A stretch of DNA of 64,000 nt, taken from the NCBI RefSeq assembly GCF_046119375.1, contig NW_027362772.1:288238001-288302000 (forward strand), read 5' to 3'. The position numbers and the translations under genes were made by a program. The notes under the pieces were generated by a model that saw only the letters and a list, made by a program, of their open reading frames with translations, made no database searches and had not been told where the DNA came from. The stretch's first letter is position 1; every line of letters begins with the position of its first letter. Of the stretch, positions 18,468 through 64,000 are shown piece after piece. The stretch comes from Phyllobates terribilis. Taxonomy: Eukaryota.

Positions 18468-21400
18468 GTAATTCTCTACTTGTTTTGTTCATTTTCCTGT
18501 AGTTCAATCTATAGGGACTGCGGCTTCCTAGCTGTTGTAACACTACAACTCCCAGCATGTCTTGCTACAGGATTTAGGGTGAGAACCAGCAAATGATAAT
18601 GTAAAAAAAGTCAGAACATCGATGAGGGGGGGGGGGGATTAGTCAATAGATGAAACTTTTAACTGTTTAGGTCCCAGAGGGTATAGCGGTAGAATGTGTT
18701 ACTATCAGGGAGTAAAATTGCAATTTATCTTATAATAAAGGGACATGGCGGATATAGAGAGGAGTGACCAAGTCTAAATACTTGCATTTTTGCTTTTGCA
18801 ATGCATGGTGAGGAAAAGAGTTAATTTGGGATATCCACTAGGTCTACGGGCTGTTTGTAAGCTGTGACCATTCCCTGCCCCGGAGGAAGCACTATGTTAG
18901 AAGTGCAATATTTGATATTCCAGCTTTATATTTTCTGTATGTGAATGGATTTTTATTAGGAACCCTAAGTGCAAAGTAAAAGCACCCAGTATTATTTATC
19001 AGCATATGGCGGTATTATGCTGGGATTCATAGGGCGCTATTTCTTGGGCTTTCCAAACATATATTAGGATGGGGCTTGCATAACCACAAAAATGTGTGTG
19101 ATTTGATGGAGGTTTTCGGTCACGAGACTTTGCATTTTGGGAAAGAGTCGTATGTGGATTGGGATTTAACACACACATTAGATGGTAAAATAATGAAATT
19201 GCGTCGTAGTCACTGTCGCATGTGATTTACAGTAAAGTGTAAGCTGGCAAAATTGCAACCAAAATCTTGCAGGTTTTCAGCTGTTGCAGTTGCATTATAT
19301 GATGTCTTGCAAAGTGACCACATTCGCAATCAGCGCTAGCGATGCTGTAATGTGACGCTTCATGACGCGCAACCAAAGTCGCTTTTTGTTACGTGCACAC
19401 TATGTGGTGTTAGTATTTGGACAGTATATGGCAGTATTATCAAGACACGATATGGTAGTATGCCTCCTGAGATCATCTTTCACTTTCAAAAATGCTAAAA
19501 TCCATCATGGTCACAACTAAATAGACTGCTAGCTCACTGAGGGATCAGATTACAGCTGTCTACTGAAGTCTATTGAGAGGAGAGTGAGGGGAGGTGGTAA
19601 GAGCAGAGAGAAAAGCAAAAGAGACATACACAGACTGTGCCGCTTCTTTTTATAAGTGTTTTAGCTCATCTCCACACCTGTCCCAGGTATTTCAGGCTCC
19701 ACTTCCTTCCTCTGGGTCCGCTGCCCTATGCTGTGCTCCAAGTTGGGTTTTGCAGATTGCTCAGAATGGATCAATGACATAATCTCCCTAGATGTATTAA
19801 AAAGACATACCTGTATTTTGGGATTGAGATTCTAGTGTTCCATGTTTGGTTTGCTCCATTAATTGTGCTTGCTGTGTTTTAAACTTGCATTCATCCCTGC
19901 TGGGTTCCACTCTGACCGTTCTCCTACTCCTGAGATTACTGTGTGTGCTAAGTCCTCGCTATCCACTGCCTTCCTGCTTGCTGCATTAACGCCCTGGGTC
20001 CGTAAGCCCACCTGGACCAAGGGATTAGAGGATCCACCTTACCTGTGGATTCAACACAAAGCAGGATCCACAGCTACACTGCTCAGTACTGCTGTATAGA
20101 GGTCTCCATACTTCTGGACGTGCTACAAAGAAACAAGGGAACAGAAATCCCTCATGTCTGTGTGTACTGTGTATGAGAGACATCAGGACAGCTATTTTCT
20201 TCCCACTAGCTCATAGAAAACTGAAAAGTAGAGATATATCCTGCATTTTCACCAGTTTCCCCTATTTCACCAATTCAGACTTTTCAAAACAAAACCAAAA
20301 AACGTTTCCCCTAAAGATCACTGATGATATATCAAGTCTTGTTTTGGTCTGTGCGAGCGCAGAAGTACTGTACATTCTCGTCCCACAGTAATAAATCAGT
20401 TGGCGCCCAGAGATTCCCTTATTAATATGCACATATCCCATTACAGCACAGATATAGACTTCCTAGACTGGAAGTCAACAGCTCGCCCAAACGTGTAATT
20501 AGTTTTCCTTACGAAATTCAGAAACACGAACCGTCGTACAGTGAGATTGGGTTATGCAATCATGTTTGTTTTCAGGTTCTTGTATTTCCTCTTCGGAGCC
20601 GACATTATTAGCTTGGGATCTGCAATGGGGTTGCAGTAATACCAATACTACCCTGGTCCATCTCCCGCCGGTCTTTGTCAGCAGTCCCGCAATGGAGACG
20701 ATCTAACTACCTTACATGACATCAGCGGTCATGTGCTACCATCACCGCTGAGGCCGGTGACTGACTGCAGCAATCAGATGACTATAGTCGGGACAAGGCA
20801 ACTATGAAGGACCAAGAGGACCACCAAAGAGACAACATGGGAACTATACGTACGACTTTATTTAGGAAACCATCTGAGGGATGACCTAATATTCCTGGTC
20901 ATGTTGCAAGGCTAGGACATTGCCCTTCAGGGTAGCTACCTCCAATCGGTGGTACTTAGAGAGCTTTCTTTTAGTCCAAGAGACAGCATGGACGATTGCC
21001 AAAAAGTCTCAACTTCTTATTAATAGGCCCATGGAGTTGGAAAAAAACTAGAAAAATACTGATACTTACCTGCTGGACCGGCGGCGCTCCACCGTACATA
21101 GCACTCAGTCGCTCGCCGGTCTGTTGGGTTCAGCATTTTGCGGGGGCATCATGTGAGCTCCAAAGCCTCCTAGCGGAAGAAACAGTGTTGATGTTGATCC
21201 CATCTGTCTGGTGGGGGACGCAATGCTGAGTACAGAAGAGCAGCGTTGGTCGGAGAGCTGAATAGAAGTTGTTGTCCACTAGTGGACAACCCCTTTAAAG
21301 CGTCAGTACCTATAAGGCAGCATCAAGGGCATCACATTTAGACAACTAACCCTGCACTGATAAAGGGGCAATGAATGTCTGACTTGGCTAATATCCCTGG

Positions 21401-21743
21401 TCATGTTACAAAGCTCAGTGAAGCGTCGGACATTGACTTGCAGGGTAGCTGCCTCCAATGGGCAGATGATTTTCTTTCCTTCCAGTCTGAGACCCAATAT
21501 TTTATCAACTGGGCAACCCCATCAAGAGCTGTGAAGGGGCAGGTAGACATGGCCATACTTAAATTATGCCTTAAACAGGCTCGATTATCTTGTACTTTTC
21601 TGAGAACTGGACCGTAAAGTCAAAGTAGTCTTGCAAAACCACATCTAAAATTTTGGCCTTTTGGGGGCGTTCCTGGTGGGCGAGGCTTAGATGTCCTGAA
21701 TATTGGTGTCAATTTTGGTAAGTACTGTATGCTTAAACTATGG

Positions 21744-23542
21744 TGTTATGCACACGCCCGGGCTGAGCGGCGTGTGCGTGTGATTGGTAGTGATTCCACT
21801 GGACCGTGCCGGAGAGTGAATGCCTGGAGGGGCGTGACTAAGTATTCACCCGATCCGACCAGGGTCGCACGACGGCATACGACGCCAGTGCACCAAGGAG
21901 GAACCGAGCAGAGGGACCAGGTGCTACTCCAGGACAGACCCCGGACACGGCTGTTGACCCACACAGGGGAATACAGGAACAGGCTGGTAGGCTGGCACAC
22001 AGACTGGTGGGTATAGGCAGGCACGACTGGTATGCAGGCAGGCGGGTATGCAGGCAGGGGGGTAAAGGCAAGCACAGCTAGAGTGCAGACAGGGAGGCAC
22101 TAGCAGGTAGGAACACAGGCGGGATAGGACCCAGTACACACTGGGACTCAGGAACAGGCAGGTTAGGCTGGCACAGACTGGTGGATATAAGCAAACACGG
22201 CAGGTATGCAGATGGGTGGATACAGGCGAGTATGCAGGCAGGGAGGTACTGGCCGAAAGGACGGGCTGGAGCACAGAAAGGTTAAGACCCAGTACAGACT
22301 GGGTCACAGAACCGCAGATGCGGTAGACAACCACAGCAGAGAGGGAACGCCCGAAGCGGTGGGCAAGAACAGAGCAGGACGGGGCTGCAGGAGCAGCGAG
22401 CACAAGCAGGGCAGGACAGGACTGCCGGAGCAGCGAGCACAAGCAGGGCAGGACAGGACTGCCGGAGCAGCGAGCACAAGCAGGGCAGGACAGGACTGCC
22501 GGAGCAGCGGGCAGAAGCAGGGCAGGACAGGACTGCCGGAGCAGCGGGCAGAAGCAGGGCAGGACAGGACTGCCGGAGCAGCGGGCAGAAGCAGGGCAGG
22601 ACAGGACTCTGTTCACACGGAACAGACAGGAAGGGAAAGACAGAGCCAGACACCCACAGGGTACTTGCAGTGAAGTAGCGAGTGGACCACAAACTCACAA
22701 ACGGGAGTACAGAGACAACAGGCAGGAGTTAGGTACGAGTTCAGACTCTGCAGAAAAAGGAAGGGAACGGACATAGAGGCAAAACAGGTAAAGGATAGGA
22801 GAGAGTTCAGACTGGAACTGAGTGTACGGAGGAGACCGACACTGCAGCGGGATACAGGAGCGGGTCTGGGAATACTGCCCCCAGAGAGGCGGGACGAACA
22901 GGCAAGGAGCGTGTTCAGACAGGACAGACAAGATACAGGAGCGGGTCTAGGTAATCGGCCCCTAGAAGGCGGGAGGAACAGGCTAGGAGCGTGTACAGAC
23001 AGGACAGACAAGATACACAGAAAGGACTCAGTTCAGACACGGGAACTAATACCGCAAAGCAGGAGACATACAGGACTCAGTTCAGACACGGGAGCTGATA
23101 CCGCAAAGCAGGAGACATACAGGACACAGTTCAGACACGGGAGCTGATACCGCAAAGCAGGAGACATACAGGACTAAGTTCAGACAGGCCTGGAAATACA
23201 GCCTCCAGGAAAGGCAGACAAGGAAACAAAGACGGGACCTGGCACCTTCAGAATGCAAGCACACACTGAAGGAAACACTTATGCTCAGGCAGGAATAGAA
23301 GGGAGCTGCTGAGCTATATACCAAGTGTCAGACAGCAATAGGCTGAGGACGCACAAGGGGTGTGACCCACAGCAGGTACAAAAAGCAGGAAGTGATCGGG
23401 CGCCGCCCTTAAGCAGCAGAGACAGACACAAACAGACAGCATGGAGGGAAGCCAGAGAGACACTCTGGACAGGAGATCAAGTGCGCTCTCTTGCACAGTG
23501 GGAGATGGACCACCATGCAAGGACGCCGCCAGGTATGTTACA
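21744..23542 (-). repeat. 3' LTR of the cryab-intron element
   Basis: Direct repeat of 25528-27363; contains five full 37-bp units (GCAGGGCAGGACAGGACTGCCGGAGCAGCGRGCASAA). Confidence 0.96.
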
Positions 23543-25389
23543 GTACCTCCCCCCTTACGCCCCCTCTTCTTCAGGCCTGCCAGAATCTTCCGCAGGGAAT
23601 TCGAGGACCAGTCGTTCACTGGGTTGGAGGGGGACAGAGACTTGAGGGTAATCTCTGCTTCGAGGTACATCTTGTCAAGCTCACAGGAAAAAATAGACGG
23701 GTTATCAGGTACATAATGAGGAAAAGTCACTGTCTCTTTGTTATCTGGTGGTACCCCGGAGGATTCAGGAAACAACTGGAGGTCCTCCGCCGGGTCAGAA
23801 GAGTGCAGAGGCTCAGAGAAAACAACTGCTTCAGAGTACACTAGGTCGGACTCACTGGAGGAAGCAGGCGAGGTATCGGGTACCGAGTATAGGAAAGTCT
23901 CTGTCCATTCACCACCAGGTGGCACCCCGAAGGGTTCTGAACACAACTGGAGGTCCTCCGCCTGGTCGGAGGGGTGTAGAGACTCGGGAGTAACCTCTGC
24001 TTCGGAGTACACTAGGTTGGACTCACTGGACGAAGCGAGCGAGGTATCAGGTACAGAGTATAGGAGAGTCTCTGTCCTTTCACCACCAGGTGGCACCCCA
24101 AAGGGTTCTGAACACAACTGGAGGTCCTCCGCCTGGTCGGAGGGGTGTAGAGACTCGGGAGTAACCTCTGCTTCGGAGTACACTAGGTTGGACTCACTGG
24201 AGGAAGCAGGCGAGGTATCGGGTACCGAGTATAGGAAAGTCTCTGTCCATTCACCACCAGGTGGCACCCCGAAGTGTTCTGAACACAACTGGAGGTCCTC
24301 CGCCTGGTCGGAGGGGTGTAGAGACTCGGGAGTAACTTCTGCTTCGGAGTACACTAGGTTGGACTCACTGTACGAAGCGAGCGAGGTATCAGGTACAGAG
24401 TATAGGAGAGTCTCTGTCCTTACGTTACCAGGTAGCACCCCGAAGGGTTCAGGAGACAACTGGAGATCCTCCGCCTGGTCGGAGGGGTGTAGAGACTCGG
24501 AGGTAACTACCACTTTGGGGTACCCATTGTCAGGCTCACAGGACGAAGCGGACAAAGTATTGAGTACCGGGTGTAGAGAAGTCTCTCTCCATTTGTCATC
24601 GAGTGGTATCCCGGAGGATTCAGGAGGCAACAGGGGATCCTCCGCCAGGTAGTAGAGGTGCACAGACTCAGAGGTAACCACAGCTTTGGAGCATCCTTGG
24701 ACATGCACACCGGTTAAAGAGAGAGAAGCATCTGATGCCGGGTGCAGGAAGTTCTCCTGTGTGGAGTCTGGATGGGCAGAAGTCTCTTCGGGCAGGAGAA
24801 CTGGTGCACTACCCACGCACATTACCCATTGGGGTTTCTCCGGGATACAGGGAGATGAAGCTTCAGTAGGGACTTCTAGGTTGGGGTCAGGAGGTCTCAG
24901 GGAGGACAGACCCTGGCGTGACGGCTTGCCTCTACGTCTAGCACGTCTGGACTGCCTCTTGAGGTTGAGAGAAGTATTCCGGAAAGCGTAGTCACCCTGT
25001 GAGGATTCTGGGTGGGCAGTAGTCTCATTGGGCTGGAGGACTATTGCGCTACCCACACACATTACCCATCGGGGCTGCTCCGGGATATTGGGAGGTGAAG
25101 CTTCAGCAGGAGCCTCCGGGTTAGGATCATCGAAGACCATTAGAAAGGCCACCAGGAAGGCCATTAGGTCCCGGAGGATCGGATCCTGTGTTTCATATAG
25201 GGGGTTGATCCATTCCAAGGCATCACCCGCCAGGTAAGACATCATAAAGGCCACTTTAGCCCAATCGGAAGGAAAGTAGAGAGGGTAGGCCTTAAAGTGT
25301 AGCATGCATTGCTCCACAAATGCACGACACTGTCTTGGATCCCCATAGTAACGTGGCGGATCCGCAGGAACGAGAGCTGATAGATCCAT
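23314..25389 (-). CDS. 691-aa ORF: Gag capsid N-terminal domain (about aa 1-89) fused to acidic Ser/Pro/Glu-rich tandem repeats
   Basis: Residues PPRYYGDP...VFDDP align without gaps at 44/79 identities to the Gag at 61495. Followed by two ~43-aa repeats, a basic patch and about six 57-aa (171-bp) repeats. The frame reads through the PPT and stops inside the 3' LTR. Confidence 0.8.
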   Translation of the reverse strand: MDLSALVPADPPRYYGDPRQCRAFVEQCMLHFKAYPLYFPSDWAKVAFMMSYLAGDALEWINPLYETQDPILRDLMAFLVAFLMVFDDPNPEAPAEASPPNIPEQPRWVMCVGSAIVLQPNETTAHPESSQGDYAFRNTSLNLKRQSRRARRRGKPSRQGLSSLRPPDPNLEVPTEASSPCIPEKPQWVMCVGSAPVLLPEETSAHPDSTQENFLHPASDASLSLTGVHVQGCSKAVVTSESVHLYYLAEDPLLPPESSGIPLDDKWRETSLHPVLNTLSASSCEPDNGYPKVVVTSESLHPSDQAEDLQLSPEPFGVLPGNVRTETLLYSVPDTSLASYSESNLVYSEAEVTPESLHPSDQAEDLQLCSEHFGVPPGGEWTETFLYSVPDTSPASSSESNLVYSEAEVTPESLHPSDQAEDLQLCSEPFGVPPGGERTETLLYSVPDTSLASSSESNLVYSEAEVTPESLHPSDQAEDLQLCSEPFGVPPGGEWTETFLYSVPDTSPASSSESDLVYSEAVVFSEPLHSSDPAEDLQLFPESSGVPPDNKETVTFPHYVPDNPSIFSCELDKMYLEAEITLKSLSPSNPVNDWSSNSLRKILAGLKKRGRKGGGTVTYLAASLHGGPSPTVQESALDLLSRVSLWLPSMLSVCVCLCCLRAAPDHFLLFVPAVGHTPCASSAYCCLTLGI

Positions 25390-25527
25390 CTGGACGGTGC
25401 GTAATTCGCCTGGAACTCAGCTAAGGGAAAAAAAATTTATTTATTTATTTTAATGCATATATTCGCTGGAAAACTTCTCAGAGGGCGAAGGCCGTGGGGC
25501 TCAACGGGAACCATGGCCTGAGCATGC

Positions 25528-27363
25528 TGTTATGCACACGCCCGGGCTGAGCGGCGTGTGCGTGTGATTGGTAGTGATTCCACTGGACCGTGCCGGAGAG
25601 TGAATGCCTGGAGGGGCGTGACTAAGTATTCACCCGATCCGACCAGGGTCGCACGACGGCATACGACGCCAGTGCACCAAGGAGGAACCGAGCAGAGGGA
25701 CCAGGTGCTACTCCAGGACAGACCCCGGACACGGCTGTTGACCCACACAGGGGAATACAGGAACAGGCTGGTAGGCTGGCACACAGACTGGTGGGTATAG
25801 GCAGGCACGACTGGTATGCAGGCAGGCGGGTATGCAGGCAGGGGGGTAAAGGCAAGCACAGCTAGAGTGCAGACAGGGAGGCACTAGCAGGTAGGAACAC
25901 AGGCGGGATAGGACCCAGTACACACTGGGACTCAGGAACAGGCAGGTTAGGCTGGCACAGACTGGTGGATATAAGCAAACACGGCAGGTATGCAGATGGG
26001 TGGATACAGGCGAGTATGCAGGCAGGGAGGTACTGGCCGAAAGGACGGGCTGGAGCACAGAAAGGTTAAGACCCAGTACAGACTGGGTCACAGAACCGCA
26101 GATGCGGTAGACAACCACAGCAGAGAGGGAACGCCCGAAGCGGTGGGCAAGAACAGAGCAGGACGGGGCTGCAGGAGCAGCGAGCACAAGCAGGGCAGGA
26201 CAGGACTGCCGGAGCAGCGAGCACAAGCAGGGCAGGACAGGACTGCCGGAGCAGCGAGCACAAGCAGGGCAGGACAGGACTGCCGGAGCAGCGGGCAGAA
26301 GCAGGGCAGGACAGGACTGCCGGAGCAGCGGGCAGAAGCAGGGCAGGACAGGACTGCCGGAGCAGCGGGCAGAAGCAGGGCAGGACAGGACTGCCGGAGC
26401 AGCGGGCAGAAGCAGGGCAGGACAGGACTCTGTTCACACGGAACAGACAGGAAGGGAAAGACAGAGCCAGACACCCACAGGGTACTTGCAGTGAAGTAGC
26501 GAGTGGACCACAAACTCACAAACGGGAGTACAGAGACAACAGGCAGGAGTTAGGTACGAGTTCAGACTCTGCAGAAAAAGGAAGGGAACGGACATAGAGG
26601 CAAAACAGGTAAAGGATAGGAGAGAGTTCAGACTGGAACTGAGTGTACGGAGGAGACCGACACTGCAGCGGGATACAGGAGCGGGTCTGGGAATACTGCC
26701 CCCAGAGAGGCGGGACGAACAGGCAAGGAGCGTGTTCAGACAGGACAGACAAGATACAGGAGCGGGTCTAGGTAATCGGCCCCTAGAAGGCGGGAGGAAC
26801 AGGCTAGGAGCGTGTACAGACAGGACAGACAAGATACACAGAAAGGACTCAGTTCAGACACGGGAACTAATACCGCAAAGCAGGAGACATACAGGACTCA
26901 GTTCAGACACGGGAGCTGATACCGCAAAGCAGGAGACATACAGGACACAGTTCAGACACGGGAGCTGATACCGCAAAGCAGGAGACATACAGGACTAAGT
27001 TCAGACAGGCCTGGAAATACAGCCTCCAGGAAAGGCAGACAAGGAAACAAAGACGGGACCTGGCACCTTCAGAATGCAAGCACACACTGAAGGAAACACT
27101 TATGCTCAGGCAGGAATAGAAGGGAGCTGCTGAGCTATATACCAAGTGTCAGACAGCAATAGGCTGAGGACGCACAAGGGGTGTGACCCACAGCAGGTAC
27201 AAAAAGCAGGAAGTGATCGGGCGCCGCCCTTAAGCAGCAGAGACAGACACAAACAGACAGCATGGAGGGAAGCCAGAGAGACACTCTGGACAGGAGATCA
27301 AGTGCGCTCTCTTGCACAGTGGGAGATGGACCACCATGCAAGGACGCCGCCAGGTATGTTACA
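25528..27363 (-). repeat. 5' LTR of the cryab-intron element (TATA at 27141-27136; predicted start near 27111)
   Basis: Apparently identical to the 3' LTR except for one extra 37-bp unit (six full units). Confidence 0.96.
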
Positions 27364-27501
27364 TATGGTTTGTTCTGAAATGTAAACATACATTTTGTTA
27401 GAGAACCTTTATATTAAAGGTGGTTTTCTAGGACCACTACAGTGATGGCCTATCCATTATTCGACCACGGTTATAATAACACGTTCCATCATTTTCCACA
27501 G

Positions 27502-27624
27502 ATGAGAATGGAAAAGGACAAGTTTTCTGTTAACCTCGATGTAAAACATTTCTCCCCGGAAGAGCTGAAAGTGAAAGTGATGGGTGATTTCATTGAAATC
27601 CATGGAAAGCACGAGGAGCGTCCG
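27502..27624 (+). CDS. cryab: alpha-B crystallin exon 2 ([25 protein letters not shown]...HGKHEERP)
   Basis: CAG|ATG acceptor, CCG|GTAATG donor, 123 nt; alpha-crystallin domain. Confidence 0.97.
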
Positions 27625-28667
27625 GTAATGATCGGGATCCCCCTATTGGACCCTTCTTTATTTGACTTTGATAACACTTGCTCTACATTACACTCCATTT
27701 TGGTTTCCGTCAAGCTTTCTTGTATATTTCATTGCAATATTATCTTTATTCTTGCCGTCAAATGTAGAAGAACCAATAAAAGTCAATAGTTTTTCCAAGA
27801 GTCCATTTAGATCCAGAGCTTCCACCATATTTGGTGCATGCAGTCCCTCTGTAAGCAATTCCTCCATTCCACCAAGTGACCCACCAGTCGTATGAGGTGG
27901 AAAAAGTAGCTAAAACACCTAATAAATCTGACGCAGGGCTTTTGCCACAGTTTTTTGATGCAACATAAACCAGAATTATGGAGCATTTATCTTAGTAAAT
28001 GCCTCTTTGGAATTACTAGTCCACGGCTGGTAGCTATAGCTCAAGGCCATCATTAGTATGGAGGTTCCTTGATCGAAGCCCCTTTCTCTTGGCCTAGACC
28101 CATCATGCCGCTTTGTCTATTCCCAATGATGGAGCATCTCAGCTTCACGAAGCAGAAACCTTCTGTAAGCTCTGGTTTCTGAAGGTCTCAGAAGCTCCTG
28201 GAGGATCTGCCAACTCCTCCGGTCTTCCCTTTCTTCCATAAGGCTTCCAGATGTTCCAGGAAAGTTGACAAGTTTGCTAAATACAGATGGCAGACTGACT
28301 AAAAGTGATATTTTCAAGACTTTCCAGCTAAAAGCTATTTCCCTGGCCTAGACACATGCCATACATATCTCACTTAAAAACAAATGATTGGGCACGTTGA
28401 CTTGAAACATGTGTGATCCTTTTCTCCTCTTGAAAGTCAGCTGAACTTTGAAGCTTATGGACCCTAATGCCAAATTTGCCCCCAACTATTGCAGGTCATC
28501 AATAGTATAAGTCTTCTTCTTTTGGTCACCCTAGTCTCCAGGATTGAGTGAGACTGCAACTTCTACACCTCTAGTGATGGCAGGTCTTGCTCAAATCAAA
28601 TATGTATGGCCACTTTGCGTCAAAGTTATCCATTAATCTTGCAACTGGTTATTCTCTCACTTCTCAG

Positions 28668-42848: not shown

Positions 42849-44185
42849 CATCCCAAAACTGTACAGATTGTGGGGCAGACCATGCTAAGACTTATGGTAT
42901 GAGGGTACCAATATCCATAGGTCAGCAGGAATCTCCGTGCATCGACCACAACAACCCCAAGCACTCAGTTCTCTCCGGAGCTCCCTGCCACCAGGATCGA
43001 AAGCGGTATTCCAATGGTTGCTGCCTTATTGTATCCGGCACCAACCTCACCAACCTTTGGTAGAGGTCCCTTTGCGACTACCTAACAAGCCATCAGCCTC
43101 AGCTGCTCTGACTATTTCCCAAGATGTATCAGATGCATGCTTTTACAGCAGACCGCGCAGAGTTCCAGGGAGCGGGTGCCCTCCAGCTTTATGTCTGGAC
43201 TCCCCTTGTTCCTACATAATCTAGGACTATTCCCATGCCTCGCTTCTCTTTCCCAGAGATAGTTTTAGAGTTGGACCTCTCCACCCTGCTACCCGAGCCG
43301 GATTCCGATCTAGACTCCAACCGGCCCCTCCAGGTCACAAGACATGATGAACAGCCCGGTATCAGCTGTCAAGCAAGCCTGAGTCAAGGACGACGAACCT
43401 CTTCCACAAAGACCATTCTCTTCTCGAGAGTGTCTCTCACCTCCAATCATGAAGAGATCTGATTGAGTGCCCCTTGCGAATGAGGTATACTCAGGAAATG
43501 GTGTTCAGAGCAGTTATCGTTCTAGAATTCTTCTGCAACCTACGGTTTCTGGTCATTTAACATTCTGATACCTGCAGGGTGCCTTGCCTATAGCAGGTTA
43601 CCTTGTTTATGGTACACACAGGAGCTGTTTTATGCCTCTCCTTACGGACAGGTCCACAATTCACCAAGGTTGTGCCCTCACACTGTTCCTACTAGCGATA
43701 GTAAGTCAGAACCGAGATGTCTCCAGAGTTATTATTTTTATAACGGAGTGACTGTTCGATACTTTGCCAGTCTTGCAGTGTGTCAGAACACTCCATCCTC
43801 CGTGTCCACAGCTGTAGAGCTTCCTTTATGGAACATACCTGGTGTTCCACCAGCTCCACGACCATACCTATGGCACGACTACCCAGGCAAACCACTGCCA
43901 ACTCCTGCCCACTTCCTAATGGCATCAGATCTATGTGGTTGCCTATCCCGCCAACAGTCCTTTCGGACTAAGGCGGGTCAGTAACAGAGTGTTACCTTGC
44001 CACTGCTATTTAAGAACATACATGCAACAACCTCCATTATCTCCGTTTCAGAGGTTTCTTATGCATCAACTGTCGGGTACTCTCTGCAGTTGGTCAGACC
44101 CACTAACATCTATGGCCACAGCTATACAGCTGTCTCTTTTCAACGGCATAAATCCATGTAGTGCTCCAGGCACTTATCTTATCTA

Positions 44186-45807
44186 CAGTACAGACCAAAA
44201 GTTTGGACACACCTCATTTAAAGATTTTTCTGTATTTTCATGACTTTGAAAATTGTACATTCACACTGAAGGCATCAAACTATGAATTAACACATGTGGA
44301 ATTATATACTTAACAAAAAAGTGTGAAACAACTGAAAATATGTCTTATATTTTAGGTTCTTCAAAGTAGCCACCTTTTGCTTTGATGACTGCTTTGCACA
44401 CTCTTGGCATTCTCTTGATGAGCTTCAAGAGGTAGTCACCGGAAATGGTCTTCACTTCACAGGTGTGCCCTGTCAGGTTTAATAAGTGGGATTTCTTGCC
44501 TTATAAATGGGGTTGGGACCATCAGTTGTGTTGTGCAGAAGTCAGGTGGATAAACAGCTGATAGTCCTACTGAATAGACTGTTAGCTGTTTTTTCTTGCC
44601 ATAATACAAATTCTAAGTAAAGAAAAATGAGTGGCCATCATTACTTTAAGAAATGAAGGTCAGTCAGTCCGAAAAATTAGGCAAACTTTGAATGTGTCCC
44701 CAAGTGCAGTTACAAAAACCATCAAGCGCTACAAAGAAACTGGCTCGCATGAGGACCGCCCTAGGAAAGGAAGACCAAGAGTCACCTCTGCTTCTGAGGA
44801 TAAGTTTATCCGAGTCACCAGCCTCAGAAATCGCAGGTTAATAGCAGCTCAGATTAGAGACCAGGTCAATGCCACACAGAGTTCTAGCAGCAGACACATC
44901 TCTACAACAACTGTTAAGAGGAGACTTTGTGCAGCAGGCCTTCATGGTAAAATAGCTGCTAGGAAACCACTGCTAAGGACAGGCAACAAGCAGAAGAGAC
45001 TTGTTTGGGCTAAAGAACACAAAGAATGGACATTAGACCAGTGGAAATCTGTGCTTTGGTCTGATGAGTCCAAATTTGAGATCTTTGGTTCCAACCACCG
45101 TGTCTTTGTGCGACGCAGAAAAGGTGAACGGATGGACTCTACATGCCTGGTTCCCACCGTGAAGCATGGAGGAGGAGGTGTGATGGTGTGGGGGTGCTTT
45201 GCTGGTGACACTGTTGGGAATTTATTCAAAATTGAAGGCATACTGAACCAGCATGGCTACCACAGCATCTTGCAGCGGCTTGCTATTCCATCCGGTTTCC
45301 GTTTAGTTGGACCATCATTTATTTTTCAACAGGACAATGACCCCAAACACACCTCCAGGCTGTGTAAGGGCTAATTGACCAAGAAGGAGAGTGATGGGGT
45401 GCTACGCCAGATGACCTGGCCTCCACAGTCACCAGACCTGAACCCAATCGAGATGGTTTGGGGTGAACTGGACCGCAGAGTGAAGGTAAAAGGGCCAAGA
45501 AGTGCTAAGCATCTCTGGGAACTCCTTCAAGATTGTTGGAAGACCATTTCTGGTGACAACCACTTGAAGCTCATCAAGAGAATGCCAAGAGTGTGCAAAG
45601 CAGTCATCAAAGCAAAAGGTGGCTACTTTGAAGAACCTAGAATATAAGACATATTTTCAGTTGTTTCACACTTTTTTGTTATGTATATAATTCCACATGT
45701 GTTAATTCATAGCTTTGATGCCTTCAGTGTGAATGTACAATTTTCAAAGTCATGAAAATACAGAAAAATCTTTAAATGAGGTGTGTCCAAACTTTTGGTC
45801 TGTACTG
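44186..45807 (+). mobile_element. Tc1-like DD38E transposon copy 2, inserted in the DIRS; start codon inverted and one nonsense codon
   Basis: TA flanks; ~268-bp TIRs; WSDESKF, FQQDNDPKH, WPPQSPDLNPIE; TAA at 45372-74. Confidence 0.95.
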
Positions 45808-48696
45808 TATATCTGGGCTCTTTGTCCATTACCCCTAGCGGTTCAGACCTACTACCCCCCCCTTATTAGCAGCTACAGTGTTTTTATCCGTTTGCTGCTA
45901 ACCCTGTAGTATTCGATCCACTATCCACAGCCTGTCAGTTTGTCGACACTCTCCTTTTTGTTTCCTCAGAAGAAGACTTGAAGAGGTCTGCAACAAATTA
46001 CAGACATGCTATTACAGACCAGATGCTGTTACAGGCTCTGTTCATACCAGAGATCAGGTCTTAGTTCGTCACGAAAACAGATTCTTCTTGTCCTGCTCAT
46101 CCTGACCACCCCGGTTCGCCCAGGCTTCGTGGGACCTACCTGTCTGATGCCTATACACGAGTTGTTGTCGAGTTGTTGTTCTGGTTTTCTTTTTCCCTAC
46201 AGTTGTCGTCAACGCCTTTCATCAGTTGGATAATCGGCTGTTTGCGGCGCTCCTCTAGGGAGACTATTCCGCATACAGGTACTCGCCTTTTCTTCCGTCA
46301 CATGTCAAGGACCGAAACAGACCTAGGGTCTCTAGACGCCTTGAGATGAAACACCTGATTACTGAGGTACCTGATCGGTAGGAGGTAATGTTGTGTCTCT
46401 AGCCTAATTTTCTCTTTCGACAAGAGAACTTCCGACTTTCAGGACATGGAAGCCTTTCCTCAAGCCGGCACTATCCGGCTTAACATTTGTCCAGTCAGAA
46501 GTTTCCACTTCCAGGGACAGTTGTTGGCAGCACCCAACATTTGCAGGATGAAGGGTTGGTAACGGAGCTCATCTCGGAAGACTCATCTTTGGATTCAGGA
46601 TTCCGCATGCAGGTACTCTTCTTTTCTTCCTTCCTTTCGGGATTGCCACTTGTCTAGAATCAAGATGGACTATCGGTCTCCAGACGCCTTATGATGAAAC
46701 ACCTGATTCCACAACCTGAACCATTCTGCCGTCTACCTGACTAGGACCTCATTAATGCCATGTCTCTTACCATACCTTCTGTTTCGACGAAGAGAACTTG
46801 CGCCTAGCAGGATATGATGGCCCTTATTCAAGCCGGTCCTGTCCAGCGTAACACGAACCAGTGGGTCGTTTCCAGAGACAGGTAAGGTTCTCCTCAGAGC
46901 ATTCCCTTCAGATAGGCGTTATTTCTGCGTGACATGTGTCATCATGATTAATCCTACCGTGGGTGGAATCCTCCCTCCGTTGGCGCCATAGTCTTTACTC
47001 TCACGATAAGAGTTCTCGATACTTCCCTTGGAGGGTTGGACTCTTTGGTGACCATCTTCCTGTCCTCTTTTTTTTGCCTTCTTCTCTCATCTCTACATAA
47101 GCGTGTTGAGTAAATTTGGGGGACAGTGTAACACATGGAACAGGGGAGCCCTTCCCCCAGATCGGTCCTTAATTCTTCCCCCCTGAGCGATGTTTTCCCT
47201 GTATGGGAGGGGCTATCCTCCCGTCTAGCCTGAGCCCTGCGCCTGTCGGAAGTGGGAAGTGTTCTGGGACACTTGTTCCCTGGCCGGGGAGCTGCCTTCT
47301 AATGCCCCCCCATTTCAAGGTCACAGGAAGTCCAGGACCTTTTCCTTTTTCCGACTCGCTTAGGTTTAGAGCCCGTCTTATCTGTTCTAGCCGTGACTTA
47401 CATACAGGGTGGAGCGCTAAATTAGACCGTCTGGTGCTTCGGTCTGAACTCATTGTTCTGTTTTTTCCTCCACAGTTTCTCCCCTGAACGGGGGACACTT
47501 CCAGTTTATCCAGAATGTTCCTATCGCTCCATGGACTGTTCGTCCTTCCTGGTCTTCGGTCCACACCTTCTCCTTGTATTACACGGTATCTCCACTCGGC
47601 ATCAGCAACGCCAATCGGTATTGGAAGGTCCCTCATGCAGTAGTGGACCAACCTTACTTTTTGAGTACTTGTCTTTTCCCTCCCTAGGGACTGCTTTAGG
47701 ACGTCCCATGATTTCCTGTGTCCCCCAATGAAGCGATAGAGAAAAGAGGATTTTTGGTACTCACCGTAAAATCCTTTTCTCGGAGCCTTCATTGGGGGAC
47801 ACAGCACCCACCCTTATTTGTGCCATTTTTGGTTCATCTTAGGGTAATCTTTTATACCTCCTTTCCTACTGCTTTCTCACAAACTGGTTAGTTCACTCCC
47901 AGGGTGGGTGTAGCCTGCTGGGGAGCAGTTAGCCCTTTTTTCTGCCTAGTGTCAGCCTCCTAGTGGCAGCAACATACACCCATGGTTTCCTGTGTCCCCC
48001 AATGAAGGCTCCGAGAAAAGGATTTTACGGTGAGTACCAAAAATCCTCTTTTTTTATTTTTAGCTTTTCTTTTTTTCACCGCGTGGTAGCCGGGATCAAG
48101 AGGAGTTGTAGTCTCCTCTTCATCCTGGGTACCACACGCAAAGCGATTATGCTGCAAATTCGCGGCCATTGAATTTAATTGAAACGCAGCAAATCCACAT
48201 ATACCTGCGGGTTTGCTGCGTTTCAATGTTCCTCAATGGCCGCGAATTTGCAGCGTAATCGCAATGCGAATTCGGCGCGCTAATTAGCGCATCATGTGCA
48301 CAGCACATCCGAATTCACATTGCTTTGCATGGCCGACTGTTTTACAAGCGTTTTTGCGGCCGTAAAAACGCTACGTGGGCACATGGCCTTATTCTTTCAT
48401 TATCAATTCCTCGTGATTTCTGCACGCAGTCAATTAGCATGAAGAGCCAAGTATCTGCGTGATCATCGCATGACCGGGTCTGGTTCACATCTCCCCAAAA
48501 TAACCAATGAGTTTTCCCACGCAGTGATCTTGACAGTGGCAATGCCTGATACAGTTACTTTAATGGAAAACTCTTACTTTGTGTTGAATACTGAATAACC
48601 TTTATCTGCTGAAGCTAGAATTCCCATGTAATTATTACACTATTATCACATTATATCGTAATAATTTATATTAATATTTCTCGCTTTCTTTCTTAG

Positions 48697-51499: not shown

Positions 51500-52028
51500 C
51501 GGCTCGGAGGGGACATCCGGAAACCATTTCCGTACATCTGAGACCGCGTTCACACTGCGTATATGGCAGCGAGTATCTGCTGGTCTGAACATGCCCATAT
51601 GAGTCCGTACAGGGACCGGAAGAGTCTGGCAATTAAATCCATTTTAAATTAAAGAAAATAATAATTTATTTTCATGTCGCCATATTCTGAGAGCCATTCC
51701 TTTTTTTTTTTTTTCCAACAATAGCTTATTTGTCACATCATAAGTTAAAATTCTCATTGGTGCATGTGTTTTTCTTTATTCTTTTTTATTTTATTTCAGC
51801 TTTTGGGAAGATGCAAAGAAAAAGCAGCAATTCTGCCATATTATTATTATTATTATTTTTTTTTTTTTATGGCATTCACCATCTAGGTTATCTAATCTTT
51901 TTATACAGAGTTGTAACTAATGTGGTGACTCCAGTTATGTGATTATTATTATTTAGTTTATTTACATATTGTAAAAACCAGTGAATGGGAAAAAGCCATT
52001 TAAAAATATGCATTTTCACTTATATATA

Positions 52029-53652
52029 CAGTACAGACCAAAAGTTTGGACACACCTCATTTAAAGATTTTTCTGTATTTTCATGACTTTGAAAATTGTA
52101 CATTCACACTGAAGGCATCAAAACTATGAATTAACACATGTGGAATTATATACATAACAAAAAAGTGTGAAACAACTGAGAATATGTCTTATATTCTAGG
52201 TTCTTCAAAGTAGCCACCTTTTGCTTTGATGACTGCTTTGCACACTCTTGGCATTCTCTTGATGAGCTTCAAGAGGTAGTCACCGGAAATGGTCTTCCAA
52301 CAATCTTGTAGGAGTTCCCAGAGATGCTTAGCACTTCTTGGCCCTTTTGCCTTCACTCTGCGGTCCAGCTCACCCCAAACCATCTCGATTGGGTTCAGGT
52401 CTGGTGACTGTGGAGGCCAGGTCATCTGGCGTAGCACCCCATCACTCTCCTTCTTGGTCAAATAGCCCTTGCACAGCCTGGAGGTGTGTTTGGGGTCATT
52501 GTCCTGTTGAAAAATAAATGATGGTCCAACTAAACGCAAACCGGATGGAATAGCATGCCGCTGCAAGATGCTGTGGTAGCCATGCTGGTTCAGTATGCCT
52601 TCAATTTTGAATAAATCCCCAACAGTGTCACCAGCAAAGCACCCCCACACCATCACACCTCCTCCTCCATGCTTCACGGTGGGAACCAGGCATGTAGAGT
52701 CCATCCGTTCACCTTTTCTGCATCACACAAAGACACGGTGGTTGGAACCAAAGATCTCAAATTTGGACTCCTCAGACCAAAGCACAGATTTCCACTGGTC
52801 TAGTGTCCATTCCTTGTGTTCTTTAGCCCAAACAAGTCTCTTCTGCTTGTTGCCTGTCCTTAGCAGTGGTTTCCTAGCAGCTATTTTACCATGAAGGCCT
52901 GCTGCACAAAGTCTCCTCTTAACAGTTGTTGTAGAGATGTGTCTGCTGCTAGAACTCTGTGTGGCATTGACCTGGTCTCTAATCTGAGCTGCTGTTAACC
53001 TGCGATTTCTGAGGCTGGTGACTCGGATAAACTTATCCTCAGAAGCAGAGGTGACTCTTGGTCTTCCTTTCCTGTGGCGGTCCTCATGTGAGCCAGTTTC
53101 TTTGTAGCGCTTGATGTTTTTTGAAACTGCACTTGGGGACACTTTCAAAGTTTTCCCAATTTTTCGGACTGACTGACCTTCATTTCTTAAAGTAATGATG
53201 GCCACTCGTTTTTCTTTAGTTAGCTGCTTTTTTCTTGCCATAATACAAATTCTAACAGTCTATTCAGTAGAACTATCAGCTGTGTATCCACCAGACTTCT
53301 GCACAACACAACTGATGGTCCCAACCCCATTTATAAGGCAAGAAATCCCACTTATTAAACCTGACAGGGCACACCTGTGAAGTGAAAACCATTTCCGGTG
53401 AGTACCTCTTGAAGCTCATCAAGAGAATGCCAAGAGTGTGCAAAGCAGTCATCAAAGCAAAAGGTGGCTACTTTGAAGAACCTAGAATATAAGACATATT
53501 TTCAGTTGTTTCACACTTTTTTGTTAAGTATATAATTCCACATGTGTTAATTCATAGTTTTGATGCCTTCAGTGTGAATGTACAATTTTCAAAGTCATGA
53601 AAATACAGAAAAATCTTTAAATGAGGTGTGTCCAAACTTTTGGTCTGTACTG
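52029..53652 (-). mobile_element. Tc1-like DD38E transposon copy 3; 350-codon transposase (53241-52189) with one in-frame stop and first Asp changed to Glu
   Basis: TA flanks; long TIRs; DNDPKH...SPDLNPIE with 38 residues between D and E; TGA at 52725-52723; WSEESKF. Confidence 0.95.
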
Positions 53653-60273: not shown

Positions 60274-60276
<3 letters not shown>

Positions 60277-61494
60277 AGTGCCGGCGTCCCTGCCCTCTGC
60301 TAGGCAGGGACGCTGTTCCCCTCACCGCTCTGCTCCGTGCCCGGCGTCCCTCTCCCGCTCTGCTGGCAGCGCGCGCTCCTTCCCGGCCACTGTGCTTAGG
60401 GCGCGCGCGCCCTCCCTCCCTCTTAAAGGGGCCGCGCGCGCCGTCCTAAGGAGTCCCCGGCCAATGGCCGGAGGACTTTACCATATATAAGGCACCTCCT
60501 CCAAAATGGAGGTGCCCGAGCAATGTTGTTGCACTGTTCACTACTCTGCTTCAGCCCTCAGGTCCCGTTGCCAGTTACCTGCCAGTTACCTGCCAGTTAC
60601 CTGCCAGTTACCTGCCAGTTACCTGCCAGTTACCTGCCAGTTACCTGCCTGATTATCTGCTACCTGTCTGCTAGTCTGAGGTCCGACGGTCTGCCTTGCT
60701 ACTCCTGTCAGTCTGTCTAAGGACCAGCCTGCCCGCTCACCTGGGAGCACACACCAGCCACCTGCCTGCTTGCCTGAGGTCCGACGGTCTGCCTTCCTAC
60801 TCCCGTCAGTCTGTCTATGGACCAGCTTGCCCGCTCACCTGGGAGCGCTCACCTGCTACCTGCCTGCTAGTCTACCTGGAGGCTCCGCCGTCACATGCTG
60901 TGACCACCTGCCTGTCCAGTGACTCCTGCTCGCTCACCTGGGAGCGCTCATCTGCTGCCTGTCTGCTAGCCTACCTGGAGGCTCTGCCGTCACGTGCTGT
61001 GACCACCCGCCTGTCCAGAGACTTCTGCCCGCTCTCCTGGGAGCGCTCATCTGCCGCCTGTCTGTTGGTCTTCCTGGAGGCTCCGCCGTCACATGCTGTG
61101 ACCACCCGTTTATCCAGAGACTCTCGCCTGCTCACCTGGGAGCTCAAGTCTACCATCAGCCGCCACAGGTCGTACCAACCCTTTACCCAGAGACTGCCCC
61201 GGTCACTTGCCGTGACCACCTGCCCGTTCACCCAGAGACTGCCCCAGTCACTTGCCGTGATCTCCTGCCCGTTCTTCCAGAGACTGTCCCGGTCACTTGC
61301 CGTGACCATCTGCCCGTTCACCCAGAGACTGCCCCAGTCACTTGTCGTGATCTCCTGCCCGTTCTTCCAGAGACTGTCCCGGTCACCTGCTGTGACTGCC
61401 TGCCTGGTCGCCACCTGCTCCCTTACAAGGACTGCCCCCTTGTATAGTAGCTCAGAGGTTCCGCCTCCCAGACCCGTTACAGTTTGCTCGGGCC

Positions 61495-62445
61495 ATGGAA
61501 CCCGGTGGCACCCAAGCTCCCTCGCTCTCGGACCTCTGTCATGAACTGTCCCGTCAGAGGTCCCAACAGGAGTCCATCCTGGGTCACCTGCGGAATGTCA
61601 ATTCTCGCCTGGACACTCTGACTGCTCCACCAGCAACCACCGCCAGTGCCATGACTCGCAACCCGGCAGCTCCGCTGCCCACCAATACCATGGTATCCTA
61701 CCCCGGACCCCGGCTTTCTGCACCTCCTTGCTTCGGAGGCGACCCCGCCCAGGCTCGGGGCTTCATTAATCAGTGCACCCTGCACTTTGAACTATTGTCC
61801 CACCAGTTTAACTCCGACCGGGCCAAAATTGCCTTCATCATGTCCCATCTCACCGGGGAGGCCCTGGCCTGGCTAAATCCTCTATGGGAGAGAGGAGACC
61901 CCCTGGTGTCCGACCTGCCTGCCTTCCTCACGGCTTTCCGGAAAGTCTTCGATGAACCCGGACGGAAGACCTCATCCTCCTCGTCTCTGCTACGCCTCCG
62001 TCAGGGAAGTCTCACCGTGGGCCAATATGCCATACGGTTCCGTACCCTTGCCTCGGAGCTGGCCTGGGATAACGACGCTCTGGTATCCGTCTTCTGGGAG
62101 GGTCTGTCCGGCCGTATTAAAGATGAACTTGCCGGTCGGGACGTTCCTACCACTCTTGATGATCTAATAACTCTTGCCACCCGGATTGACCTACGGTTCC
62201 AGGAGCGTGCCAAAGAGGTCACCCGTGAGAGGAGGTTTCCACGTCTAGCTCCTACTTTTCAGAAACCCGTCACTCCCTCCGTCTCTCCCCAGGTACACTC
62301 TCCTGAGCCTATGCAGGTCGACCAGACCAAGATGGTCAAAACCCGTCAGGACTTACGCCGTGCCGAGGGGAGCTGCTTCTACTGTGGCAGTAAGGAGCAC
62401 CGGATCCGTGCCTGCCCAGAGAGGTCGGGAAACGCCTGTGTCTAG
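61495..62445 (+). CDS. Gag (316 aa): coiled-coil N-terminus, capsid, CCHC zinc knuckle
   Basis: FGGDP...FINQC...AKIAFIMSHLTGEALAW; LRQGSLTVGQYAIRF; CFYCGSKEHRIRAC. Confidence 0.95.
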   Translation: MEPGGTQAPSLSDLCHELSRQRSQQESILGHLRNVNSRLDTLTAPPATTASAMTRNPAAPLPTNTMVSYPGPRLSAPPCFGGDPAQARGFINQCTLHFELLSHQFNSDRAKIAFIMSHLTGEALAWLNPLWERGDPLVSDLPAFLTAFRKVFDEPGRKTSSSSSLLRLRQGSLTVGQYAIRFRTLASELAWDNDALVSVFWEGLSGRIKDELAGRDVPTTLDDLITLATRIDLRFQERAKEVTRERRFPRLAPTFQKPVTPSVSPQVHSPEPMQVDQTKMVKTRQDLRRAEGSCFYCGSKEHRIRACPERSGNACV

Positions 62446-64000
62446 GTTCGCTCAGAGAGGTCGACCTAGACAAGAATAAATCCTCTCCATCTCTGCTGCT
62501 GTCAGTTTCAATCGTCTGCGGGGAGAACCGTTATTTCTAGCCCAACTGGACTCTGGAGCAGCCGGGAATCTTATTTCACAGTCCCTGGTAGAGAAGTACC
62601 GCATCCCCACCAAACCTCTGGCTGTACCCTTGTCTGTTGCTGCCGTGGATGGGGGTCTCTTACCACGCCCCATCCAACTCATCACCGAATCCATTACTCT
62701 GCAAGTGGGAATGCTGCATTCTGAGAGTATCTCCTTTCATGTTCTGCCTGGACTCTCTCACGCCCTCCTGCTAGGTCTACCTTGGCTCCAGAGACATGCA
62801 CCCGTGCTTGACTGGCAGACCGGAGAAGTCCTTCGCTGGGGACAGGACTGCCATAAGACCTGTCTGGTTCCCGTCCATCCCGTCCGTCCTTCTCCTACCC
62901 CAGCTAATCTACCTGGACTTCCGATTCCTTATTGGTCTTATGCTGATGTCTTTAATAAAAAGGAAGCAGAGACACTACCCCCTCATAGACCATACGACTG
63001 CCCTATCGACTTGTTACCCGGTACTACTCCTCCCCGTGGGCGTATTTATCCATTATCCGCTGCTGAGACCCGGTCGATGTCCGAATATATTGAGGAGAAT
63101 CTGGCCAGGGGATTCATCCGGAAGTCTACCTCCCCGGCAGGAGCAGGCTTCTTCTTCGTAAAAAAGAAGGACGGCTCTCTCCGTCCCTGTATAGACTATA
63201 GAGGCCTTAACCAGATCACGGTGAAAAATAAGTACCCCCTTCCGCTCATTCCGGAGTTATTTGATCGTCTGAGAGGGGCTAGAATCTTCACCAAACTGGA
63301 CCTCCGTGGGGCTTACAACCTGGTTCGTATCCGTCAGGGGGATGAATGGAAGACGGCATTCAACACCCGGGACGGCCACTATGAATATCTGGTAATGCCC
63401 TTTGGCCTCTGTAACGCTCCTGCCGTCTTTCAAGAGTTGGTCAATGACATCTTCCGGGACCTTCTCTACTCCTGCGTAGTGGTGTACCTGGACGACATCT
63501 TGGTCTTCTCTCCGGATCTCCAGACTCACCGGAGGGATGTTCGTCAGGTCCTGCTCAGGCTCAGGCAGAACCATCTCTACGCTAAATATGAGAAGTGCCT
63601 CTTTGAGCAGACCTCGCTTCCGTTTCTGGGCTACATTATCTCTCACACCGGCCTACAAATGGATCCTGAGAAACTGTCTGCCATCGAGAAATGGCCCCGA
63701 CCAGAGGGGTTGAAGGCTATTCAACGGTTCCTGGGCTTCGCCAACTATTACCGCCTCTTCATCCCGCACTTCTCTTCCCGGACTGCCCCAATTTCCGCGC
63801 TCACCCGTAAGGGTACTAATCCCAAAGAGTGGCCGCCCGAAGCAGAGGAGGCCTTTCTTTCCCTAAAACAGGCCTTCTCTTCCGCCCCGGTGCTGCATCG
63901 CCCGGACGGCAACAAGCAGTTCTTCCTGGAAGTTGACGCCTCCTCCTCTGGAGCCGGAGCGGTACTTACTCAAAAATCATCTTCCGGGAGAATGGTAACT
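62433..64000 (+). CDS. Pol (protease-RT-start of RNase H) via -1 frameshift; one apparent 1-bp deletion near 62535; runs off the window
   Basis: Hand translation gives LDSGAAGN (62546), [33 protein letters not shown] (63485) and LEVDAS in one open frame to base 64000. Confidence 0.92.

What the first reader, a model, noticed from the sequence alone, without database searches (positions are those of the whole stretch)
25516..27141. Self-priming signal with compensatory base changes in both LTR elements
Seen: neither element has a tRNA-type (TGG...) PBS. In this element (minus strand), GCCTGAGCAT begins 30 nt after the TATA box (27111-27102) and is the exact complement of ATGCTCAGGC, 2 nt past the 5' LTR (25525-25516). 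In the alg9 element, GCCCGAGCAA (60514-23, also 30 nt after TATA) is complementary to TTGCTCGGGC (61484-93, also 2 nt past the LTR). The two 10-mers differ at two positions and both are compensated in the partner. Known: Tf1 and Tf1/sushi-group elements prime from their own mRNA 5' end after RNase H cleavage. Inference: self-priming across a very long loop (about 1.6 kb and 1 kb here), which the pol-less element would need a helper RT/RNase H to process.
Basis: partly seen in the sequence, partly recalled or inferred. Interest (0 to 1): 0.7.

Follow-up and report, generated by a model that had tools for sequence, protein, structure and literature searches.

The report
Self-priming retrotransposons leave cap footprints
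Two jumping genes in a large animal genome, and their relatives, carry a 10-letter site that pairs with the likely start of their own RNA instead of a host tRNA, a known self-priming trick, and variation among thousands of copies of the enzyme-less family piles up where that RNA would be capped and cut, which likely records how the trick works.

Summary
Observation confirmed exactly. E2 is a Ty3/gypsy chromovirus. E1 is a young pol-less family, 5,298 exact LTR-end/PBS junctions, with an open 691-codon gag-fragment ORF. Eight primer/PBS types across families pair 10/10, with 14 paired changes on the tree. Self-priming is in print for Tf1/sushi elements, vertebrates included, and this scan met it before in mosses, so the core is known.

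New here are genome-wide footprints. In E1-type LTRs position -1 varies in 596 against 10 at -2, mostly T>G, as expected from copying a 5' cap. A one-base insertion after +11 occurs in 1,050. Of 67 changes at PBS position 5, 66 give the base that pairs with the common primer variant. These support a start at 27111/60514, a cut near +10/+11 and copying of primer into PBS. They also suggest that some cDNAs reach an intact cap, which needs a second RNA.

Against: only 5 of 42 primer-variant elements carry the compensated PBS, founder effects are not excluded, and there is no RNA-end data.

The parts
25528..27363 (-). E1 5' LTR, 1,836 bp, TG...CA
   Evidence: LTR pair alignment, ends and TSD
27136..27141 (-). 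E1 TATA box, 30 nt before the primer
27112..27112 (-). E1 position -1: variant hotspot across the family (mostly T>G), read as a cap-copying footprint
   Evidence: 596 variant LTRs against 10 at -2; interpretation inferred
27102..27111 (-). E1 predicted self-primer (+1 to +10 of the RNA)
27100..27102 (-). E1 +10/+11 junction: substitution and insertion hotspot, read as the end of strong-stop DNA on the cut RNA
   Evidence: interpretation inferred
26145..27007 (-). Tandem arrays (49-, 80- and 37-nt units) inside the loop; loop length varies between copies
   Evidence: primer-PBS distance 1,093-1,650 in 25 of 30 loci
25534..25561 (-). Predicted 9-bp U5 hairpin just before the LTR end
   Evidence: constrained fold; little covariation seen
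25516..25525 (-). E1 primer-binding site, 2 nt past the LTR, followed by C (25515)
23314..25389 (-). Open 691-codon ORF: N-terminal gag fragment (DUF4939) plus acidic 57-residue repeats; no pol; runs into the 3' LTR
23543..23570 (-). E1 polypurine tract
21744..23542 (-). E1 3' LTR, 1,799 bp
21739..21743 (-). 5-bp target-site duplication (partner at 27364-27368)
60274..61481 (+). E2 5' LTR, 1,208 bp, inserted in a TA microsatellite
60484..60489 (+). E2 TATA box
60514..60523 (+). E2 predicted self-primer
61484..61493 (+). E2 primer-binding site, followed by C and the gag ATG
61495..62445 (+). E2 gag (DUF4939, Retrotrans_gag, Ty3_capsid; best PDB match PEG10)
62480..64000 (+). E2 pol frame; continues past the window as protease-RT-RNase H-integrase-SH3-chromodomain, 1,122 codons stop to stop

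Best explanation
Both elements belong to a Ty3/gypsy chromovirus lineage whose primer-binding site is the exact complement of a 10-nt sequence 30 nt after its own TATA box, and they likely start reverse transcription Tf1-style, using the capped first 10 nt of element RNA as primer. Inferred steps: (1) Pol II starts at +1 (27111, 60514). (2) +1 to +10 pairs with the PBS. (3) RNase H cuts near +10/+11 (known for Tf1, untested here). (4) Minus-strand DNA ends at +11 and jumps to the 3' R, leaving errors at +10/+11. (5) Plus-strand synthesis copies the retained primer, which writes primer changes into the daughter PBS and would add a C opposite the cap; C follows the PBS in all eight types. (6) In a fraction of rounds the minus strand runs to an intact cap, which needs a second, uncut RNA, either primed in trans or jumped onto, leaving G at -1. 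E1 has no pol and must borrow RT, RNase H and integrase; the E2 family is the nearest coding relative sampled.
For: Cross-family pairing: 8 types at 10/10 and 14 paired changes by parsimony; offset control 37 of 47 against at most 1 of 47. Chromovirus domains. Position -1: 596 variant E1 LTRs against 10 at -2; first 100 rows 82 G, 18 C, 0 A, mostly in both LTRs of a copy. In E2, 28 against 3 both-LTR pairs in the first 100 rows of each list, 18 of the 28 G. The cap templates a C for an MMLV-type RT (PMC6885630 passages). +10: 48 LTRs, 15 both-LTR pairs, against 3 independent-looking paired loci at +9. One-base insertion after +11 in 1,050, present and absent on at least three R haplotypes. PBS position 5: 66 of 67 changes give the base matching the 364-LTR primer variant, against 10, 8 and 1 changes at PBS positions 1, 3 and 7; 5 of 42 primer-variant elements carry it against about 8 of 1,826 others (estimated denominator, p 5e-6). 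The helix is in the full-length minimum-energy fold for E1 (p 0.94) and E2 (0.67).
Against: No RNA start, cap, cleavage product or cDNA end was observed. 37 of 42 primer-variant elements are not in the compensated-PBS list (two confirmed to have the common PBS), and 6 of 7 PBS-position-1 variants with a visible primer are uncompensated. Raw counts at -1 and -2 in E2 are alike (185 and 178); only the paired class differs. No junction hotspot showed in about 45 family-A loci or 21 young E2 copies. Copies share ancestry, so counts are not independent events and p-values overstate. The full-length fold lacks the helix in 3 of 6 representatives. E1 and E2 LTRs show no blastn similarity and their gag fragments are only 55% identical, so the helper is not established.
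Confidence: 0.85

Rival explanations
1. Textbook intramolecular Tf1 priming only. The -1 and +10/+11 variants and the matched PBS variant are inherited from a few prolific founder copies and say nothing about cap copying, primer write-in or a second RNA.
For: U3 shows clear sub-lineages; one insertion allele travels with one R haplotype; -1 variants in E2 are concentrated in short copies (13 of 28 against 0 of 37), which could be one lineage; other families show no hotspot in small samples.
Against: Two derived alleles at -1 in each of two families, G commonest in both. -1 G occurs with both +6 alleles, 6 nt away (16 of 56 elements; 8 of 58). Two elements have the common primer in both LTRs but the variant PBS.
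Confidence: 0.4
2. The 10-bp helix is real but structural (packaging, cap shielding or control of gag translation, whose ATG follows the PBS in E2), and priming uses something else.
For: The ATG lies 1 nt past the PBS in E1 and E2; no cleavage was observed.
Against: The fixed 2-nt offset from the LTR end is where a primer must sit. The +10/+11 hotspot and PBS write-in fit priming. Families A, B, C and D have no ATG directly after the PBS.
Confidence: 0.07
3. A host tRNA or tRNA fragment primes, and the LTR match is chance.
For: The host tRNA set could not be compared.
Against: No TGG; eight different PBS sequences each match their own LTR at one position after TATA; offset control.
Confidence: 0.03

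Closest known systems
Tf1/Tf2 of Schizosaccharomyces pombe and the Tf1/sushi chromovirus group, including vertebrate sushi-type elements (passages of PMC10085805, PMC6317226, PMC4600332, PMC5341516)
   Same: Ty3/gypsy order with a chromodomain; no tRNA site; PBS just past the 5' LTR complementary to the predicted RNA 5' end; flanking U5-leader or U5 stems predicted
   Different: 10-bp helix (11 in Tf1, recalled); loops of 425-1,650 nt, partly variable tandem repeats; a pol-less family with thousands of copies; population footprints at -1 and +10/+11 and a matched PBS variant, which my searches did not find described. Butler et al. 2001 and the primary Levin papers were not held, so they may cover part of this.
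Non-autonomous LTR elements (LARD, TRIM, gag-only TR-GAG; definitions recalled)
   Same: Two LTRs, PBS, PPT, 5-bp TSD, no pol, moved in trans
   Different: Self-primer instead of a tRNA site; ORF is only the N-terminal gag part fused to acidic repeats, kept open in older relatives
PEG10 and RTL/SIRH (Mart) genes derived from sushi-ichi-like elements (PMC4340606 abstract start)
   Same: DUF4939/gag similarity; PEG10 is the only PDB match to E2 gag
   Different: E1 and E2 are mobile, multi-copy and LTR-flanked, not single domesticated genes
Cap-templated C addition by MMLV-type RT (PMC6885630 passages)
   Same: Predicts an unencoded G at -1 on the plus strand
   Different: Shown in vitro for another enzyme; here inferred from genomic copies

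Membership tests
Tf1/sushi chromoviruses | Ty3/gypsy domain order PR-RT-RH-IN | tested here: met
   E2 pol; best PDB match Ty3 Gag-Pol. E1 has no pol.
Tf1/sushi chromoviruses | Chromodomain at the integrase C-terminus | tested here: met
   PF00385, E 4e-11, residues 1011-1057 of E2 pol
Tf1/sushi chromoviruses | PBS next to the 5' LTR complementary to an LTR sequence after TATA | tested here: met
Tf1/sushi chromoviruses | That LTR sequence is the RNA 5' end | tested here: inconclusive
   Indirect support from the -1 footprint; no RNA ends available
Tf1/sushi chromoviruses | No tRNA primer | tested here: inconclusive
   No TGG in any of 8 types; no tRNA sequences obtained
Tf1/sushi chromoviruses | Three-duplex 'pretzel' structure | tested here: inconclusive
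   Long U5-leader stems with differing letters in A, A2, B, D; U5 hairpin in E1 and C; weak in E2; no formal covariation count
Tf1/sushi chromoviruses | RT groups with Tf1 and sushi-ichi in a tree | not tested
   No reference sequences were obtained from a tool; the tree holds only this genome's elements
Tf1/sushi chromoviruses | RNase H cleavage releases the primer | not testable with these tools
   Only the +10/+11 hotspot bears on it
Non-autonomous LTR element | No pol, yet intact termini, PPT and TSD | tested here: met
   20 of 20 full copies; no pol-bearing copy recognised among 30 of 35 older relatives within 1.5 kb past the PBS
Non-autonomous LTR element | Identified autonomous partner sharing LTR termini | tested here: inconclusive
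   Gag fragment groups with E2 family at 84/81 support, 55% identity; LTRs not alignable

The most novel reading that the evidence does not exclude
Self-priming in these elements is often a two-RNA reaction. With R-U5 loops of 1-1.6 kb, and above all in enzyme-less copies, one RNA donates its capped 10-mer or its strong-stop DNA and an uncut partner RNA is copied to its cap. The primer is then written into the daughter's PBS together with a cap-derived C, so primer and PBS coevolve by templating, not by selection on separate mutations. The genome keeps a countable record of start site, cut site and partner use in thousands of copies.
Probability: 0.4. Interest if true: 0.7.

Novelty: new variant of a known kind. 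Interest (0 to 1): 0.5.

Why it matters
Self-priming was worked out in yeast Tf1 and, in the passages I could read, is inferred or 'implicated' for vertebrate relatives. Here a vertebrate-type genome gives population evidence without an assay: an invariant primer flanked by error hotspots at the cap and at the cut, and a PBS variant that tracks a primer variant. It offers a simple answer to how primer and PBS, 1-1.6 kb apart, change together, and a way to map retroelement start and cleavage sites from assemblies alone. It also shows a pol-less, self-priming family reaching over 5,000 copies while keeping a truncated-gag ORF open. The priming mechanism itself is not new.

Tried and rejected
Sequencing runs: no RNA holder listed, and all runs are contigs, so no start site could be read. 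tRNA search listed 63 matches in two clusters and gave no sequences. A DNA search with E1's internal 3' end returned nothing (uninformative). Rfam found no match over 21000-28000. No AATAAA/ATTAAA in the sense strand of either LTR, so the R/U5 border is unplaced. Looking for a coding element with E1's PBS: 30 of 35 matches examined were all E1-lineage relatives; the one pol hit was on the opposite strand. Write-in of another family's primer into E1's PBS: the family-B form occurs 2 times and the full E2 form in 0 of the first 100 rows, so no support for cross-family priming. Compensation at PBS position 1: 1 of 7 readable cases. Atlas search with the E1 ORF gave only leads at 0.85 or below, DUF4939/gag. 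Five primary papers were not held. Paper searches showed no listing that describes these footprints or two-RNA self-priming; I saw listings and selected passages only, and no supplements. Considered and rejected: -1 G templated from the PBS-leader, since U3 and the leader share no flanking homology (sequence inspection).

Full report
1. Observation. The four 10-mers are present as stated and are exact reverse complements. E1 spans 27363 to 21744 on the minus strand: LTRs of 1,836 and 1,799 bp, a 1,985-bp interior, a PPT and a 5-bp TSD. E2 starts at 60274 and continues past the window. Its pol frame has protease, RT, RNase H, integrase, SH3 and chromodomain, so it is a Ty3/gypsy chromovirus. 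The genome is 10.57 Gb; a vertebrate host is inferred from that size and from the PEG10-like gag. The loops are 1,576 and 960 nt.

2. Covariation across families. I fetched 80 of 150 gag-domain hits. 27 had no LTR pair in the stretch, 5 had alignments ending far from gag and 3 had no recognisable end; the other 45 plus E1 and E2 were scored. 37 of 47 had a perfect complement of the 10-mer at offset +2 and 43 of 47 had at least 9 of 10, against at most 1 of 47 perfect at each of 27 other offsets. I also fetched 40 of 150 integrase-SH3 hits. 8 had no pair, 6 no CA end and 4 an end inside the LTR; of the other 22, 11 scored 10/10, 6 scored 9/10 and 5 scored 8/10. Together these give eight primer types: GCCTGAGCAT (E1), GCCCGAGCAA (E2), GCTAGAGTAT (A), GCTTGAGTAT (A2), GCCTGAGTAT (B), GCTTGTGTAT (D), GCGCTCAGAT (C1) and GCGCTCTGAT (C2). 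Each pairs with its own PBS and lies about 28-30 nt after a TATA-like box. Seven of ten columns vary. Parsimony on a tree simplified needs 14 paired changes. RTs of the other families are about 56-74% identical to E2's in the longer alignments. The base after the PBS is C in all eight types, while position -1 is T or C.

3. The E1 family. There are 5,298 exact LTR-end/PBS junctions and 6,687 LTRs of this promoter type. All 20 full copies fetched had two LTRs, identical 5-bp TSDs, LTR ends 98.8-100% identical and no pol inside the element; ORFs were 346-691 codons, mostly differing by whole 171-nt repeats. The primer-PBS distance ran from 1,093 to 1,650 nt in the 25 of 30 loci where it could be read. 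Older relatives kept the same PBS (30 of 35 matches to a pattern that required it) and mostly an open frame, with synonymous to non-synonymous differences near 15:19 in the closest. The gag fragment groups with the E2 family (55% identity, support 84/81). E2 has 40,095 exact promoter-primer copies. It is the best helper candidate sampled, but the two LTRs do not align.

4. Footprints. I noticed these in the first 20 copies and then tested them on other copies and genome-wide. A variant present in both LTRs of a copy arose before integration (established LTR replication logic). At -1, 596 E1 LTRs differ from T, against 10 at -2; the first 100 rows are 82 G, 18 C and no A (counted by hand). An unselected sample of the first 100 LTRs, 60 elements, had -1 G in 9, changes at +11/+12 in 10, none at -4 to -2 and none at +10. 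In E2 the raw totals at -1 and -2 are alike, 185 and 178, but the first 100 rows hold 28 concordant both-LTR pairs at -1 (18 G, 10 C) and 3 at -2. An RT copying a capped RNA to its end adds C opposite the cap (PMC6885630, passages), which gives G at -1. This supports a start at +1. At +10, 48 LTRs differ (15 pairs), against 24 at +9, many of which look like duplicates of one locus. A one-base insertion after +11 occurs in 1,050 LTRs, present and absent on at least three R haplotypes among 38 elements. This is where strong-stop DNA would end on an RNA cut after +10. Tf1 RT adds untemplated bases to most cDNA ends (PMC11042837 passage).

5. Primer written into the PBS. A primer variant at +6 occurs in 364 LTRs. 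At the partner PBS position, 66 of 67 changes are the matching base; PBS positions 1, 3 and 7 change 10, 8 and 1 times. In the 35% of the genome covered by the listed rows, 5 of 42 two-LTR primer-variant elements carry the matching PBS, against 8 among an estimated 1,826 others. Two of those 8 have the common primer in both LTRs. The other 37 of the 42 are absent from the variant list, and two of them are confirmed to have the common PBS. So the pairing is coupled but not kept copy by copy. This fits plus-strand copying of a retained primer together with exchange between co-packaged RNAs. About half of Tf1 cDNA keeps a full PBS copy at its 3' end (PMC11042837 passage); that the Tf1 self-primer is not removed I saw only as a title in a reference list. 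A compensated sub-lineage plus recombination would give the same table.

6. What a cap footprint implies. An RNA that has given up its first 10 nt has no cap left on the template. Reaching the cap needs an uncut second RNA, either primed by a sibling's primer or jumped onto within the long R (inference). The footprint is about 9% of E1 LTRs and under 0.5% of E2 LTRs. Within E2 it is concentrated in short copies: 13 of 28 pairs are 3.3-4.0 kb apart against 0 of 37 for the common allele (these short copies were not fetched). Founder effects could inflate all of these. About 45 family-A loci and 21 young E2 copies showed no hotspot.

7. Structure. The helix is in the minimum-energy fold of the whole 5' region for E1 (mean pair probability 0.94), E2 (0.67) and B (0.95), but not for A, D or C1. 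With the PBS held open, A, A2, B and D form long U5-leader stems with differing letters, and E1 and C form U5 hairpins. These resemble the flanking duplexes of the 'pretzel' described for Tf1/sushi RNAs (PMC10085805 passage); they are predictions only.

8. Comparison with what is known. Self-primers are described for the Tf1/sushi group in yeast and vertebrates (passages of PMC6317226; PMC10085805; PMC4600332; cleavage by RT in PMC5341516). Butler et al. 2001 and four Levin-lab papers were not held, so I cannot say what they report on loop length or cap copying. Eight searches listed nothing on such footprints; I saw listings and passages only. Earlier notes of this scan record self-priming chromoviruses in mosses and nothing on these footprints or this ORF. 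It works like Tf1; membership of the Tf1/sushi group is likely but the reference tree was not run.

9. Verdict. Real feature, known mechanism, new variant: kilobase loops, a large pol-less family and countable footprints of start, cut and primer write-in. Interest 0.5; 0.7 if two-RNA priming holds (probability about 0.4).

Noticed in passing
window:23314-25389 (-): The pol-less element's ORF is not simply broken: an N-terminal gag fragment fused to acidic 57-residue repeats stays open across copies and older relatives. It may act as a capsid modifier or decoy; untested.
   Followed up: partly
L184 (G000:C203), both LTRs: One copy lacks the TATA box and primer in both LTRs, the deletion joining short look-alike sequences, yet has a perfect TSD. 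Likely a misplaced strand transfer.
   Followed up: partly
G000, e.g. C1:40641856: A further E1-lineage subfamily with an E2-like spacer and first PBS base, 4 of the first 100 rows and up to about 360 copies. L292 shows the matching primer with a different promoter; a probable ninth type.
   Followed up: partly
L283, L285, L289, L291, L292: E1-lineage copies with quite different U3 promoter sequences keep the primer about 30 nt after their TATA-like box.
   Followed up: no
G000, E2-type LTR pairs 3.3-4.0 kb apart: Short, presumably internally deleted derivatives of the E2 family exist and are enriched for -1 variants.
   Followed up: partly
window:62426-62433: A GGGAAAC heptamer near the end of E2 gag, like the PEG10 frameshift site (recalled).
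   Followed up: no
window:25437-25514 (-): In E1 the ATG after the PBS opens only a 25-codon upstream frame; the long ORF starts 125 nt later.
   Followed up: no
G000 small contigs C3181-C7643: The top SH3_Tf2-1 hits lie on small contigs and match the profile differently from chromosomal hits; possibly foreign DNA in the assembly.
   Followed up: no
G000:C4:752.2-753.4 Mb and C5:164.4-164.9 Mb: Dense, partly duplicated clusters of chromovirus integrase hits.
   Followed up: no
window:4276-6984, 44167-45812, 52024-53655: Several Tc1/mariner-type transposon copies, 95-99% alike.
   Followed up: no
window:50318-51499 (+): Host exon with an FDX-ACB domain, probably FDXACB1.
   Followed up: no
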